From Octopus sinensis (taxonomy: Eukaryota): a stretch of DNA of 64,000 bases. The stretch lies in assembly GCF_006345805.1 (NCBI RefSeq), contig NC_043004.1, positions 1,674,001 to 1,738,000 on the forward strand. The letters run 5' to 3'. The position numbers and the translations under genes are program-made. The notes under the pieces were generated by a model that saw only the letters and a program-made list of their open reading frames with translations, did not search any database and had not been told where the DNA came from. Numbering within the stretch: the first letter of the stretch is position 1; the number at the start of each line of letters is the position of its first letter. This document shows positions 15,682 to 59,892 of the stretch, piece after piece.

Positions 15682-16484
15682 CTACTGTGCATGCGCACTA
15701 AGTCTTAACGTTCTAGCTCATTTCTGCTGTTTAAATCAGTGCTTGGAAGGAAGGTGTGTAGCGTGTGATCGTCGCATTGACAATGACAGAGAAAATTGTC
15801 ATGGCCATACCTGCTCATAGGCTTATGCGAAGTTGCAGTAAGTGTATGGAGAGGAGTGTATGAGCAGCATACCTCTGAGCAGGTATGGCCATGACAATTT
15901 TCTCTGTCATTGTCAATGCGACGATCACACGCTACACACCTTCCTTCCAAGCACTGCTTTAAACAGCAGAAATTAGTGATTCAGACGATTCCAAGGTAGC
16001 CGAAAAAATGTCGATATTGACGAACCTTTTGGGAGACCCGCAACCAGCAAAATTTGGAAAGACATCGCAGATGTACATGCAACTGTGAGGAGAAATCGCT
16101 GAATCACCATTCGTGAGTTATCAGAGGATGTGCAGATTAGTTACGGTTCAGTTCAGTCCATTATCACTAAAGATTTGTGTATGAGATGCGTATCTGCTAA
16201 GCTTGTGCCATAACTGATTTCAGCTGGCCAAGAAGTGACTAGGGTTTCAGTTGCACAAAATCTCCTTGATTGTGTTGAGAACGGTGAAAGCTTTTTGAAA
16301 ACTTTGCGTAGGCCTCTGAACATGTATCTCCAAGCTTTTGACAAAATTTGATGCAGATTCTCTACTCAACTTTCTCTGTCACGCTCAATGCGACGATCAC
16401 ACACTTCACATCGTTTTTTTCCAAACACTGCTGTAAACAGCAGAAGTGAGCTAGGACGTTAATACTTAGAGCACATGCACAGCA
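15682..16484 (+). mobile_element. Non-autonomous mariner-derived element with long inverted repeats and an internal foldback
   Basis: 15682-15800 is inverted at 16365-16484. The interior encodes decayed transposase N-terminal sequence (RRFQGSRKNVD..GRPATS..ITIRELSEDVQISYGSVQSII..VSAKLVP). Confidence 0.8.
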
Positions 16485-17451: not shown

Positions 17452-17527
<76 letters not shown>

Positions 17528-17553
17528 CAATATGTTACATTACTCGGTAGTCA

Positions 17554-17615
17554 AGATAAAACTCTGAGTTTCAGATGCCGAAGTGGAAATCACAACACCA
17601 TCTCTTCGGTTATCT
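17554..17615 (-). ncRNA. Hammerhead ribozyme motif (mirror copy)
   Basis: Reverse complement of 17705-17767. Confidence 0.7.
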
Positions 17616-17704
17616 GGCTATTTGAAAACGTTATGAAAAAATACCGTTAAAAAAATTTTTTTTTTTTTTTTAACGGTATTTTTTCATAACGTTTTCAAAT
17701 AGCC

Positions 17705-17767
17705 AGATAACCGAAGAGATGGTGTTGTGGATTTCCACTTCGGCATCTGAAACTCAGAGTTTTATCT
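17705..17767 (+). ncRNA. Type I hammerhead ribozyme motif (U4C core)
   Basis: agataa-CcGAAGA-gatg..catc-t-GAAA-ctc-a-gag-TT-ttatct: 6-bp stem I, stem II, near-palindromic stem III, GUU triplet. Confidence 0.75.
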
Positions 17768-17885
17768 TGACTACCGAGTAATGTAACATATTGTATAGAT
17801 AAATTTCCTCTATTTACATAATATTGAGGTCTCTTTCTTTCTTTTGTTATCTTACCGTTTTATCAATATATATATATATATATAT

Positions 17886-19456: not shown

Positions 19457-19515
<59 letters not shown>

Positions 19516-19652
19516 ATATATATAGTTCAGCAAAAAATTAGATTCGAATGAATATGGTACTTAATTTAGATGCACCAGAATTTTGTATGGTGTTATCCAT
19601 AAAAATTTGCGGGGTGATTATAACCAAAATAAGCAACAAGAATCACTCCGGT

Positions 19653-19743
19653 AATTTGGTACAATTGTTTCGCACTACATCATTTTATTAAAAGCTGTAA
19701 GTATTACAACAGATTTAAGATGCTGAGTGCTCATCAGCCAATT
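19653..19743 (-). ncRNA. Type I hammerhead ribozyme, intact core (mirror copy)
   Basis: Reverse complement of 19968-20058. Confidence 0.82.
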
Positions 19744-19967
19744 AAATAGGTTTTCCATTAATATAAAAGCTTTCAAATCAAGTAGCAACATTATAGAGAA
19801 GGTAGATATACAGACAAAGATGTAGATTTAAATTTTAAGAACATATGAGGTAGTGAAGTTCAGCCACTGACTGACCAAGCTATGGTTGTATTTAACTGAT
19901 ATATATACCTTCTCTATAATGTTGCTACTTTGATTTGAAAGCTTTTATATTAATAGAAAACCTATTT

Positions 19968-20058
19968 AATTGGCTGATGAGCACTCAGCATCTTAAATCT
20001 GTTGTAATACTTACAACTTTTAATAAAATGATGTAGTGCGAAACAATTGTACCAAATT
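19968..20058 (+). ncRNA. Type I hammerhead ribozyme, intact core, extended stem II
   Basis: aattgg-CTGATGA-gcact..agtgc-GAAA-caattg-TA-ccaaatt; GUA triplet with predicted cleavage after 20051; palindromic stem III ACAATTGT. Confidence 0.87.
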
Positions 20059-20090
20059 ACCGGAGTCATTCTTGTTGCTTATTTTGATTT

Positions 20091-20139
<49 letters not shown>

Positions 20140-20386
20140 TTATAATATATTATATATATATATATATAATATATATATTATATATATATATATATAAATA
20201 TATATATATATATTCTGTTGTGTCTGGGGAGAGTGGTTTTCTTTTCGTGCCTTATAATTTAACATTCACCGGTAAAATTTCCACTTATTTCTTATTTTTA
20301 TTTTCCTAAAATTTAGGAATGGCATTATTAAAATACCATCACGAGTGGTTAGCGAATTATCTGCCGTGCAGGCAAATTAATAAAAT

Positions 20387-20723
20387 ATATACATACAATA
20401 TTAGATATGTACATATATACATATGGGTACTACATGAATACCTATATCGCTAATGATAGAAGTAAAAAAATACTTCTGTACCACCGAAAAGTCACAAATC
20501 TATTACAGACAAGATAGGGAAAAATATCAGTGAACAATAATAATGTCTTACCTCGAATGGTAAGACATTATTATTGTTCACTGATATTTTTTCCTATCAT
20601 GTCTGTAACAGATTTGTGACTATTTGGTGTACAGAAGTATTTTTGACTTCTATTTTTTAGCAATGTAGGTACTTATGTAGTACCCTTGTGTATATATGTA
20701 CATATCTAATATTGTATGTATAT
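20387..20723. repeat. Imperfect palindrome, about 165 bp arms, 6-nt spacer
   Basis: Centre ..aataataatgtcttacc-tcgaat-ggtaagacattattatt..; the arms pair out to the (TA)n flank. Confidence 0.9.
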
Positions 20724-20755
20724 TTTATATATATATATATATATATGCTACATAT

Positions 20756-23666: not shown

Positions 23667-23872
23667 CAAAGTATAACCGCGTGTGTATCGTTGGCGATTT
23701 TTGTCCTCTGTCTTCGCTTCCTTTGGTGTTTCTCCTATTTCTGAAGAAGAGCAAGGCTCGAAACGTTAAATCCTATTTCCTTCCTTTCTCCAGAACGTCC
23801 GATAATGCAATAATTGTACCACGTCTTCACGTTATTGTTTTTTCTTGTTTCTACTTTGTTTGGATTCACTAT
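23666..23872 (+). mobile_element. Solo Penelope-type terminal repeat between (TA)n runs
   Basis: About 200 bp, with an HHR and a T-rich tail; (TA)n on both sides. Confidence 0.75.
23737..23771 (+). ncRNA. Minimal type I hammerhead ribozyme, intact
   Basis: attt-CTGAAGA-a-gagc-aag-gctc-GAAAC-GTT-aaat; palindromic AACGTT stem III, typical of dimer-dependent Penelope HHRs. Confidence 0.82.
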
Positions 23873-45509: not shown

Positions 45510-45621
<112 letters not shown>

Positions 45622-47743
45622 AGATTTTTTAGACGTAACTTTTAATGTAAGATCGGATAGATTTAAACCTTTCCGTAAGCCCAATGAAAAGCTATCGTAT
45701 ATTAGCAAAGATTCGAACCATCCACCAGGTTATCCTTAGCAACTTAGTCCGCAATGTAGGTAGAAGAATATCTTCAATTTCTTCGGACGAGGCAGCATTC
45801 CATAATGCTGCACCTTATTACGATAGCGCATTAAAGAATAGTAGATTCTCGGAGAAGATCCAGTTCAACCAGCTTAATGCTAATAATAAGCTGCACGAAG
45901 AACTAGGACCAGGAAAGTTTTGTGGTTCAACCCGGCTTTCAATTTGGCCGTAAAGACTAATATAGGTAAGGAATTTTTGAGATTAGTCTCTAAGCATTTT
46001 AAGCAGGGTCATAATTCTACAGAATATTTAATAGAAGAACCCTGAAGGTTAGCTATTCTTGTTGAGAGAAATTTGCCTCTTACATTAGCCAACATAATAG
46101 GAAGCTAATTGGATTAGACATGGTGCCGAGCCCATTAAGAAATGTAATTTCAAAAACGAAAGCTCCTGTCCGTTAGAAGGGAAATGTCTAGTGAAAGAGT
46201 AGTTTTAGAGCCAAGGTGCAAGTGGAAGGCTCATCGGAATACAAGACATACACAGGGGCTTCAGAAAATTCATTAAAACAAGATTTTATTCTCATAAGAA
46301 TTCTTTTAAATACCCAGAGAATAGGAAGAAAACCAGCCAGCAAAATATGTCTGGGAACTAAAAGAAACGGAAAGCCCCACCTTTCAAAGTGATGACTGGA
46401 GCATTCTGGACAGGGCGGCACCATACAGGCATGGAGCTTACAAATATAATTTCAAGTGCAAGCTTTGCTTATTAGAGAAAATGCACATCTTATTCAAAGA
46501 CAATAATTCTTTGAATCAAAGAAGTGAGTTAATGAACTTATGTAGGCACGCGGCTAAATTTAAAATGTCGAATATAAATATACCATATGGATAGAGTATA
46601 TATTTTGTATTTTGATTTTTTGATTTTGATTTTGACTCTTAAGCGCTACGACGGATTTATAGCAAAGTCTTATGTTTCTACATATATATTAGGAAAAACC
46701 TACAAACTTTGTTTTCATGTTATTGTATTGCATAGGATTACCTGATTATTTATAAATGACCCAAAATAGGATGTTATATTTTATTTTATGTCTTTCGTAT
46801 ATATTTTTATTAATGCACCCATTTTTTAAAAGCATGTTTTTTTAAAAAAAGCAATGCATGTCAAAATTAAATGTTGTCAAATTAGAATGTTATATAAGTA
46901 ATGTATAGCAAAGCATATGTATTGGTAAGCATGCGTATCTGTGTATGTGTAAGTGAAAGTATGCTTGTGCTTAAGCACGCATACACACGACGGTATGTAT
47001 ATGTATCAATTTAAACTTGTGTATGTATACTGGCCTCTATAGATGCCAATAACATCGCTACAATTTTCCCCCACCCCCACCCCTCTTTCGTTCCTTTTCT
47101 CTCTTTCTCTTTCTTCGTTCCCCCTCCTTGCTCAGTATATGAGAATTGCTACATAGATGAATTTTAGCTTGCGTGCGAGACGGTTTGCGTGAATATATGT
47201 ACACATGCTTTTATGTGTATAATTAGATTCATATTCATACGTCTGTATAGGTATGTATGGCGTTACGCGCATCCTTTTGTGTATGTTGATATATATATGT
47301 GGATTTTAATATAAATATGTATTGCAGTATTTATAACAGGTTTAATTTCTATGCATTAATTTGTACTGTCTTCAGTAACGGCAATAGGTTTTTTCCTCGG
47401 TTTTTCCTCGGATTTTATAATTTTTATAATTTTTATAAGTTTTTTTATATATATATACATATATTTTTGACCTTTTTGTTTATCGCTCGAAGAGATTGAC
47501 CGTTTTTTCTAAAGGGCCAATCAAACAAGTCCATTTCTTTTTAAAGGTGTAGCGTTTGTAAGAGTATAGATTGAATTAATATATAAGTTCCATTCTAGCA
47601 AAAATGTCTGATGAACGGCAACGAGAAACTCAGAGTAACAGATTTTGTTGAATTTTCTGCTGCTTAAAATAAAGCATATTACTCTACCACTGGTATTTGA
47701 GTACTCTTTTTTCCACCTTGTTTCACATTTATGTGTTACTCCG

Positions 47744-51971: not shown

Positions 51972-52007
<36 letters not shown>

Positions 52008-52008
<1 letters not shown>

Positions 52009-52551
52009 GAGGGTGAGTTAAAAAGTAATGCCATTTTGTTTAGGACAGGTATAATTACCAACACAGGAACATGTATCATACATCAAAATGAAGCTGGTCC
52101 TCTATGGATTACATCCCTACTTCTCAACATAGCAATGATCCATCTTCGAATGAGAGCATGTATCCCTACTCCATAATATTCTGTACTTTGAGCCACTTCT
52201 TCACTATAGTTTTCACTTCCTTGTCACTGGAATAATTTAGCTCCTTCAGACTATCATCTCTTCGGCTCCATGAAAGAGGGTTTGGAAGGCAAACATTATC
52301 CCTGTGGCTTGGAAGTGAAAACTGTAGTGAAGAAGTGGCTCAAAGAAAAGTCAACAGAATGTTACGGGGCAAGGATACATGCTCTCATTCAAAGGTGGAG
52401 CATTGCTATTGAGGATAAAAAGGTGACTATGTTGAGAAGCAGGGATGTAATCCACAAAGGACCAGTTTCATTTTGATGTATGATACATGTTCTTGTGTTG
52501 GTAATTATACCTGTCCTAAACAAAATGGCATTACTTTTTGACACACCCTCG
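52008..52551 (+). mobile_element. Mariner-derived MITE, about 125 bp TIRs, TA target duplication
   Basis: ta|cgagggtg..aaaagtaatgccattttgtttaggacagg ... cctgtcctaaacaaaatggcattactttt..caccctcg|ta; internal LAPSDYHLFGSMKEGL. Confidence 0.93.
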
Positions 52552-52577
52552 TATAAGGTATATATATATATATATAA

Positions 52578-59334: not shown

Positions 59335-59892
59335 AAAATTTGGGGACCGGGGAAAAGTCGATTACATCGACAACAGTACGCAACTGGTTCTTACTTTATC
59401 GGCCCCTAAAGACTGAGGGGAAAAGTCGACGGGATTCGAACTCCGCTTAGCATTTTGTGCGGCTTACCAACGATTCTTCCAGCTCACCACTCTATGTGAC
59501 ATAGTAATGGGGTCGATCTAATCGACTCATCTACACCTTCTTGTGGCAAAAATTTGAAATAATTATTGTCACGTAAGGCAAAAATCATTAGAACGCCGGA
59601 CAAAATGTTTAGCCACATTTCGTCCGTCTTTACGTTCTCAGTTCGAATTCCACCGAGGTCAATTTTCCTTTCCTCTTATCGGGTCAATGAAATAAGTCCC
59701 AGCCGTGTACTTGGGTCGATATGATCGAATTACCCCTCCTCGAAACTGCTGGCCTTGTGCCAAAAGTTGAATCCATTACTATGTCACATAAAGTGGTGAA
59801 CCGAGAGAATCGTTGGTAAGCCGCACAAAATGCTAAGCGGAGTTCGAATCCCATCGACTTTTCCCCTCAATCTTTCGGGGCCGATAAAGTAA
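59335..59892. mobile_element. S2 SINE cluster with local inverted duplication
   Basis: 59390-59510 is inverted at 59773-59892, with a + strand S2 copy between. Confidence 0.8.

What the first reader, a model, noticed from the sequence alone, without database searches (positions are those of the whole stretch)
19625..20086. Long inverted repeat with an intact hammerhead on each strand and an unusually extended stem II
Seen: 190-bp arms each contain aattgg-CUGAUGA-GCACU...AGUGC-GAAA-CAAUUG-UA-ccaaauu with an unmutated core and GUA triplet. Stem II is about 60 nt and structured (gcatc/gatgt pairing plus a gttgtaa/ttacaac hairpin), far longer than in minimal Penelope HHRs. Stem III is the perfect palindrome ACAATTGT. 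Inference: a transcript from either strand carries one ribozyme plus its full antisense upstream, so folding would compete between self-cleavage and a long dsRNA rod. The likeliest origin is the inverted terminal-repeat duplication known for Penelope elements.
Basis: partly seen in the sequence, partly recalled or inferred. Interest (0 to 1): 0.75.

Follow-up and report, generated by a model that had tools for sequence, protein, structure and literature searches.

The report
Long-armed hammerheads in Penelope retroelement stubs
The mirror repeat is two truncated ends of an abundant Penelope-like jumping gene joined head to head in a TA repeat, a layout already described; each end carries a complete hammerhead ribozyme motif whose second arm is over twice as long as in published relatives, and which is predicted to cut only in pairs and to be locked shut at this site.

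Summary
In detail: 195-bp arms, with an intact type I hammerhead motif on each strand (59-nt stem II insert, palindromic stem III).

It is one insertion of a Hydra-type Penelope-like retroelement (PLE), 19525-20092, between (TA)n tracts. Two 5'-truncated end repeats (pLTRs) sit head to head. The left one carries a 94-nt tail that the finding missed. Other copies link this sequence to the RT and GIY-YIG ORF. Head-to-head stubs, one-sided tails and opposite-strand hammerhead pairs are published.

The long stem II is a lineage trait, not a feature of this locus: 51-85 nt in five ORF-linked families, against 12-26 nt in 26 published Hydra rows. It shows compensatory changes.

At this locus the RNA rod wins by about 120 kcal/mol, and copies decay neutrally, so no switch is indicated.

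Side result: 32 of 35 head-to-head pairs have one tailed and one untailed arm (none alike), share lineage variants and have correlated breakpoints. This fits two primings on one RNA.

Cleavage and expression are untested. The scan has noted the same thing repeatedly, in this genome and others.

The parts
19459..19524 (.). (TA)n target tract, left
   Evidence: sequence
19525..19618 (-). 94-nt one-sided tail: in ORF-bearing copies this is the 5' UTR that follows the pLTR; holds two short predicted hairpins with almost no covariation
19525..19903 (-). left unit: 5'-truncated pLTR plus tail (from -243 to +135 relative to the cleavage site)
19656..19741 (-). type I hammerhead motif, minus strand; core starts 19737, predicted cleavage after 19660
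19814..19899 (-). apparent spacer: upstream pLTR/3' UTR sequence present only in the longer left unit
19900..19903 (.). head-to-head junction, 4-nt TATA overlap of the two units
19900..20092 (+). right unit: 5'-truncated pLTR without tail (from -150 to +41)
19970..20055 (+). type I hammerhead motif, plus strand; core 19974-19980 and 20040-20043, predicted cleavage after 20051
19981..20039 (+). 59-nt extended stem II (IIa 19981-85/20035-39, IIb 19988-92/20030-34, apical IIc 20001-07/20011-17); mirror copy at 19672-19730 on minus
20043..20050 (+). palindromic stem/loop III, predicted dimer interface; mirror copy at 19661-19668
20091..20213 (.). (TA)n target tract, right
   Evidence: sequence

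Best explanation
This is a single gene-less insertion of a Hydra-type Penelope-like retroelement, made of two 5'-truncated pLTR ends joined head to head inside a (TA)n tract, one with a 94-nt tail and one without, each carrying the family's long-stem-II hammerhead motif, which likely serves the intact element as a dimer-dependent ribozyme and is predicted to be locked in a double-stranded rod here. SHOWN: the layout, the repeat family, the link to an RT plus C-terminal GIY-YIG ORF in other copies, Hydra motifs, (TA)n flanks, two fixed 3' ends (+41 and +135) with variable 5' ends, and the long covarying stem II across families. INFERRED: the element's protein nicked both strands of the (TA)n target. 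Each nick primed reverse transcription on uncleaved element RNA, one at the +135 start and one at the +41 start. Both cDNAs stopped early and were joined at a 4-nt TATA overlap. In full-length tandem copies the hammerheads of the two pLTRs would pair through the palindromic stem III and cut at low rate. At this locus a read-through transcript would form a roughly 190-bp rod, with no ribozyme activity and no host function.
For: Family: 2845 candidates, 92 matches among the 40 scored. Upstream of the pLTR other copies hold a GIY-YIG domain (PF01541, 24 bits, cut-off 22.6). Downstream of the tail L013 runs into an RT-type ORF. Ten long ORFs of relatives: DKT 10/10, CxCX5C 9/10, YRDD 9/10, CxxC 8/10, RW 9/10 with RWK in 3, matching the Hydra definition (PMC8557442 section 11). 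Ends: 32 of 35 head-to-head pairs in 66 distinct loci are tailed+untailed, 0 tailed+tailed, 0 untailed+untailed, 3 other. The two arms of one insertion differ at 24 of 356 diagnostic cells against 38% between loci (21 pairs). Published precedent: inverted 5'-truncated copy and one-sided tail (PMC8557442; PMC3846280); dual hammerheads 100-700 bp apart on opposite strands (PMC4209133); two RT start sites, both strands cut, uncleaved RNA as main template (PMC11167929). Covariation: 9 of 19 pairs with double changes, 0 of 500 shuffles, slid controls 3 at most. Within 70 family copies the palindrome pair is AU 49, GC 13, GU 6, broken 2, and IIa pair 19982/20038 is CG 47, UA 16, UG 5, other 2. Energies: monomer hammerhead -15.0 against MFE -16.9; dimer -41.2; rod -313 against -191. 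Rare changes are flat: core 1.17%, stems 1.15-1.56%, flank 1.33%.
Against: No cleavage or expression was shown. Pfam found no RT domain in 5 ORFs and the PDB search found nothing, so the RT call rests on motifs and by-eye likeness to Hydra-1_Obim; no tree was built. One apical pair (20002/20016) is a C-A mismatch in 18 of 70 family copies and unpaired in 5 of 12 representatives, so the apical hairpin is not strictly kept. Covariation counts come from related subfamilies and are not independent events. IIb was not scored across subfamilies because its register shifts in the alignment. Loci were the best matches of three searches, which favours young copies and weakens the neutrality test. The tail (94 nt) and ORFs (842-1124 aa stop to stop) are longer than published for PLE tails (30-40 bp) and Hydra elements (<3 kb). 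A transcript started inside the junction would lack most of the upstream antisense and could fold a hammerhead.
Confidence: 0.85

Rival explanations
1. The locus is a host-used RNA switch in which self-cleavage competes with a long dsRNA rod (an editing or siRNA substrate).
For: Both cores are intact and the arms are 96% alike. A read-through transcript would form a long duplex.
Against: Intact cores are usual in this young family (62 of 71). The rod is about 120 kcal/mol more stable. Arms drift apart at non-diagnostic sites (3.7%, against 4.7% between loci), so little repair between arms. Only 16 of 32 pairs keep both hammerheads. None of the 52 open frames of 120 aa or more in the window looked by eye like a host exon, though short exons would be missed.
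Confidence: 0.04
2. The inverted arm arose by fold-back (self-priming) of a single cDNA rather than by two primings.
For: 5' breakpoints of the two arms correlate (rho 0.68, n=18; 7 of 18 within 15 nt, permutation p 0.003). The arms share lineage variants. PMC3846280 argues for self-priming on an antisense template.
Against: A fold-back copy of the tailed cDNA cannot reach further 5' than its template, yet the untailed arm reaches more than 15 nt further in 12 of 32 pairs (tailed further in 9, within 15 nt in 11). A fold-back from the untailed cDNA cannot template the tail.
Confidence: 0.15
3. It is a non-autonomous unit (MITE or non-LTR retrozyme) that moves as a fixed palindrome.
For: Non-coding, long inverted repeats, TA flanks, hammerheads.
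Against: Inner breakpoints scatter from -1402 to +111 among pairs, the ends are asymmetric, 31 of 66 loci are single arms, and the units are not head-to-tail tandems. The sequence is contiguous with the PLE ORF on both sides in other copies.
Confidence: 0.02
4. The long stem II is tolerated filler in a hammerhead that no longer matters to the element.
For: One apical pair is broken in a sub-lineage. Insert length and sequence differ freely between families (51-85 nt). Hammerhead mutants did not affect insertion in vitro for an anole PLE (PMC11167929).
Against: 13 of 17 representative inserts fold at z<=-2. Double changes occur in stems I, IIa, IIc and the palindrome. The core is kept across families whose proteins are 37-52% identical.
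Confidence: 0.3

Closest known systems
Hydra clade of C-terminal EN+ Penelope-like elements (Craig et al. 2021, PMC8557442), incl. Hydra-1_Obim and Penelope-13_HM
   Same: RW(K), DKT, CxCX5C linker, CxxC/CxH, C-terminal GIY-YIG, (TA)n target, type I hammerhead in the pLTR; Penelope-13_HM also has an inverted 5'-truncated copy with a hammerhead on each strand.
   Different: Stem II insert 51-85 nt against 12-26 nt in the 26 Hydra rows of File S2 (23 nt in Hydra-1_Obim; counted by hand). Tail 94 nt or more against 30-40 bp. Longer, partly Asn-rich ORFs. No tree built.
[quoted passage not shown]
   Same: Full core, short stem I, 2-bp palindromic stem III predicted to work as a dimer; pairs on opposite strands 100-700 bp apart already reported.
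   Different: Helix II there is 6-8 bp; here a three-segment irregular rod. The nearest precedent seen is a roughly 54-nt insert in the spike-moss PLE-X1_sMoe.
EN+ PLE inverted-pLTR insertions with one-sided tail (PMC3846280; PMC11167929)
   Same: Head-to-head truncated copies, tail on one end, two fixed 3' ends matching two RT start sites, AT-rich targets, uncleaved template.
   Different: Here the two starts are about 94 nt apart. I did not find a count of strict tailed+untailed pairing or of breakpoint correlation in the parts I read.
Metazoan non-LTR retrozymes (bioRxiv 10.64898/2026.07.22.740005)
   Same: Type I hammerhead related to PLE pLTRs, non-coding at this locus.
   Different: Retrozymes are head-to-tail tandem units; this is a head-to-head stub contiguous with an ORF elsewhere.

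Membership tests
Hydra-clade PLE | C-terminal GIY-YIG endonuclease on the RT ORF | tested here: met
   PF01541 above cut-off on L013:628-1041; the domain is C-terminal in L080 and L087
Hydra-clade PLE | DKG changed to DKT | tested here: met
   10 of 10 long ORFs; the decayed copy L013 of the window's family reads NKT
Hydra-clade PLE | N-terminal RWK motif | tested here: met
   RW in 9 of 10, RWK in 3 of 10; RWI in the window's family
Hydra-clade PLE | CxCX5C linker before EN, CxxC and CxH in EN | tested here: met
   CxCX5C 9 of 10, CxxC 8 of 10 (two ORFs end early); all three motifs in copies of the window's family
Hydra-clade PLE | CCHH motif absent from EN | tested here: inconclusive
   No cysteine pair seen inside the GIY-YIG core by eye; no alignment with reference ENs
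Hydra-clade PLE | Insertion in (TA)n | tested here: met
   Both flanks here and most ends
Hydra-clade PLE | RT phylogeny within Hydra | not tested
   Reference proteins seen only in a paper supplement and compared by eye
PLE-type type I hammerhead | Conserved core and three helices closed by stem I | tested here: met
   Rfam models do not detect it
PLE-type type I hammerhead | Short palindromic stem III (dimer type) | tested here: met
   Double change AU to GC keeps the palindrome; dimer -41.2 against 2 x -16.9 kcal/mol
PLE-type type I hammerhead | Self-cleavage | not testable with these tools
   needs an in vitro assay or raw RNA reads
EN+ PLE insertion layout | Inverted 5'-truncated copy and one-sided tail | tested here: met
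   32 of 35 pairs
Neptune-clade PLE | CX2-5CxxC linker and DKG | tested here: not met
   CxCX5C and DKT instead
non-LTR retrozyme | Head-to-tail non-coding tandem units, each with a hammerhead | tested here: not met
MITE | Fixed symmetric terminal inverted repeats and fixed length | tested here: not met
   asymmetric ends and scattered junctions

The most novel reading that the evidence does not exclude
The palindromes record a PLE-specific twin priming: a protein dimer nicks both target strands and copies one RNA twice, from two start sites 94 nt apart, so every inverted insertion has one tailed and one untailed arm that tend to stop at the same place. The 51-85-nt stem II is a selected accessory domain (protein docking or translation) of a hammerhead subclass that Rfam and published descriptors miss.
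Probability: 0.3. Interest if true: 0.6.

Novelty: new variant of a known kind. Interest (0 to 1): 0.33.

Why it matters
The locus itself is ordinary transposon debris. Two family-level points have some value. First, a hammerhead subclass with a long, covarying stem II is abundant in this genome and invisible to Rfam, so ribozyme counts in such genomes are too low, and the role of PLE hammerheads, still open, gains a deletable domain to test. Second, the strict tailed+untailed pairing, shared variants and correlated breakpoints make a sharp prediction on how PLE inverted repeats form, which PMC8557442 names as unresolved. An in vitro system of the PMC11167929 kind could test it.

Tried and rejected

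Rfam: of 249 matches in the window the 150 listed were almost all microRNA-like matches on simple repeats and palindromes, with no hammerhead; no hammerhead among 6 matches on the right arm.

Protein identification: Pfam gave no RT family for 5 ORFs, the PDB search gave 0 hits, and the Atlas gave no answer.

Expression: no RNA holder listed. Contigs of three guessed-RNA runs and one unlabelled run show only family-level pieces; none of the three covers the junction, and no ends or editing can be read. This is no evidence either way.

Tail structure: two short hairpins are predicted but the covariation term is 0.04, so they are not called.

One shared stop site for the stubs: not seen; paired breakpoints scatter.

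Constrained dimer folding crashed and was redone by energy evaluation.

The viral 'long helix II' hammerheads (PMC13725137) have only 6-8 bp and are not the same thing.

Lunse et al. 2016/17 on dimeric PLE hammerheads was not held. It and its supplements may contain long-stem variants.

Rows dropped before the 17-insert count: clusters with 48-, 47-, 45-, 21- and 16-nt inserts (deletion copies or unrelated). L073 (76 nt) and L097 (46 nt) were kept but are not ORF-linked.

Full report
OBSERVATION. The inverted repeat is real: arms 19619-19813 and 19900-20092, 197 columns, 6 mismatches, 2 gaps. A strict scan of both strands of the window returns only two hammerheads, + 19974-20051 and - 19737-19660, each with an intact core, 4-bp stem I, 59-nt stem II insert, palindromic stem III and a GUA site. 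The insert folds as a three-segment rod (z -3.2). Rfam does not see it.

WHAT IT IS. The sequence is a repeat: 2845 candidates in the 2.7-Gb own genome, 92 matches among the 40 scored. The element extends left of the finding to 19525 and sits between (TA)n tracts. Read in hammerhead sense, the left unit spans -243 to +135 around the cleavage site and the right unit -150 to +41; they meet at a 4-nt TATA overlap. In other copies the same sequence is preceded by a GIY-YIG domain (PF01541) and followed, after the tail, by an RT-type ORF (L013). A protein search found 115 matches, several in frames of 800-1100 aa. Ten long ORFs show DKT 10/10, CxCX5C 9/10, YRDD 9/10, RW 9/10 and CxxC 8/10. These are the marks of the Hydra clade (PMC8557442 section 11), and by eye the ORFs follow Hydra-1_Obim. 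Pfam and PDB did not name the RT, and no tree was built.

ENDS AND JUNCTIONS. I fetched 30 or fewer best loci from each of three searches. 82 were entered and 67 were distinct; one served as reference. Of the 66 others, 35 are head-to-head pairs: 32 have one tailed and one untailed arm, none has two alike, and 3 are other. The remaining 31 are single arms (17 untailed, 13 tailed, 1 other). Untailed+untailed could have appeared in the 18 pairs from tail-free queries, and tailed+tailed in the 17 from the tail query. 5' breakpoints scatter but correlate between arms (rho 0.68, n=18; 7 within 15 nt, permutation p 0.003). The untailed arm reaches further in 12 of 32 pairs, the tailed in 9. Arms of one insertion differ at 24 of 356 diagnostic cells, against 38% between loci, but at 3.7% of other cells, against 4.7% (21 pairs). 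So they come from one source lineage and have decayed separately since. All arms that hold a hammerhead run through the cleavage site, so their templates were uncleaved (inference). This agrees with PMC11167929: two RT start sites bounding the tail, both strands cut, unprocessed RNA as main substrate, predicted protein dimer.

THE RIBOZYME. The long stem II is a lineage trait. Inserts are 59 nt in this family, 57-60 in families at about 75% protein identity, and 51, 55 and 85 in families whose proteins are 37-52% identical to each other. The 26 Hydra rows of File S2 of PMC8557442 have 12-26 nt (hand count). The same table holds one plant PLE with about 54 nt, so a long loop II has a precedent. 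On 12 representatives, 93.9% of cells pair and 9 of 19 pairs show double changes (0 of 500 shuffles; slid controls 3 at most): stem I 2/4, IIa 3/5, apical IIc 3/7, palindrome 1/3. Relatedness inflates these numbers, and IIb was not scored. 13 of 17 inserts fold at z<=-2. 13 of 17 have a perfect 6-nt palindrome; one search filtered for near-palindromes, but the unfiltered scan gave the same kind of loop. Within 70 family copies two pairs switch together (AU/GC 49/13 in the palindrome; CG/UA 47/16 in IIa), but one apical pair is C-A in 18. Rare changes are as frequent in the core (1.17%) as in the flank (1.33%), which fits no selection after insertion, though the sample is biased to young copies. 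Computed energies: monomer -15.0 against a competing fold at -16.9, dimer -41.2, whole-element rod -313 against -191 with the hammerhead enforced.

MECHANISM. Shown: layout, family, motifs, covariation. Inferred: two nicks in (TA)n primed two cDNAs on element RNA at the +135 and +41 sites; both stopped early and were joined. In intact tandems the two pLTR hammerheads would pair through stem III and cut slowly. Here any read-through RNA would be a rod. Fold-back of one cDNA explains the correlated stops but not the 12 pairs whose untailed arm is longer. A host switch lacks support. Expression could not be assessed.

KNOWN VERSUS NEW. Head-to-head stubs with a one-sided tail (PMC8557442, PMC3846280) and hammerhead pairs on opposite strands 100-700 bp apart (PMC4209133) are in print. 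I found no paper describing the long-stem Hydra hammerheads or twin priming in PLEs (searches; listings only), but Lunse et al. was not held. The scan has noted both points before, in this genome and others; these notes gave me the Hydra lead and the 'one RNA copied twice' wording and are not counted as support.

PAPERS SEEN. PMC4209133: parts 1-2 of 4. PMC11167929: parts 1-2 of 4. PMC8557442: passages, section 11, supplement parts 1-2 (Files S1, S2) and Hydra-1_Obim rows. PMC3846280, PMC6765202: passages. PMC13725137: abstract and passages. bioRxiv 10.64898/2026.07.22.740005: part 1 of 5; its supplements are closed. Lunse et al.: nothing beyond a citation.

VERDICT. Real, and ordinary as a locus; a new variant of a known kind at family level. 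Interest 0.33.

Noticed in passing
window 17527-17795: A second head-to-head palindrome with a hammerhead-like motif on each strand (+17711-17761, -17609-17560): variant core with C at position 4, 6-bp stem I, 30-31-nt stem II insert. Likely a stub of another PLE family.
   Followed up: partly
window 23741-23767: Minimal hammerhead-like motif with a 12-nt stem II insert; a similar motif is in L094.
   Followed up: no
window 45620-46549: Decayed PLE ORF fragments (RT and EN) matching the Hydra-type proteins by tblastn.
   Followed up: no
window 52004-52555: TA-flanked element with 129-bp terminal inverted repeats and other copies in fetched loci; the ends resemble mariner-type elements (recalled).
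   Followed up: no
window 15717-15976, 20385-20730, 59391-59892: Further palindromes or fold-backs of 100-170-bp arms, with no hammerhead core found.
   Followed up: partly
L089:1759-1886, L090, L098: Hydra-type family with an 85-nt stem II insert forming a very stable rod (z -6.3) and 960-aa open frames.
   Followed up: partly
L028:2620-2830 family: Very young sister subfamily: 40 best copies 98-100% identical, 2437 candidates.
   Followed up: partly
L023, L019, L080 ORFs: Asn-rich (AAT)n stretch between RT and EN, as described for rotifer Penelopes.
   Followed up: no
L081:6100-6245 and relatives: The tail is about 120 nt in sister families and is as conserved as or more conserved than the hammerhead region; it includes a third hairpin that is shortened in the window's family.
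   Followed up: partly
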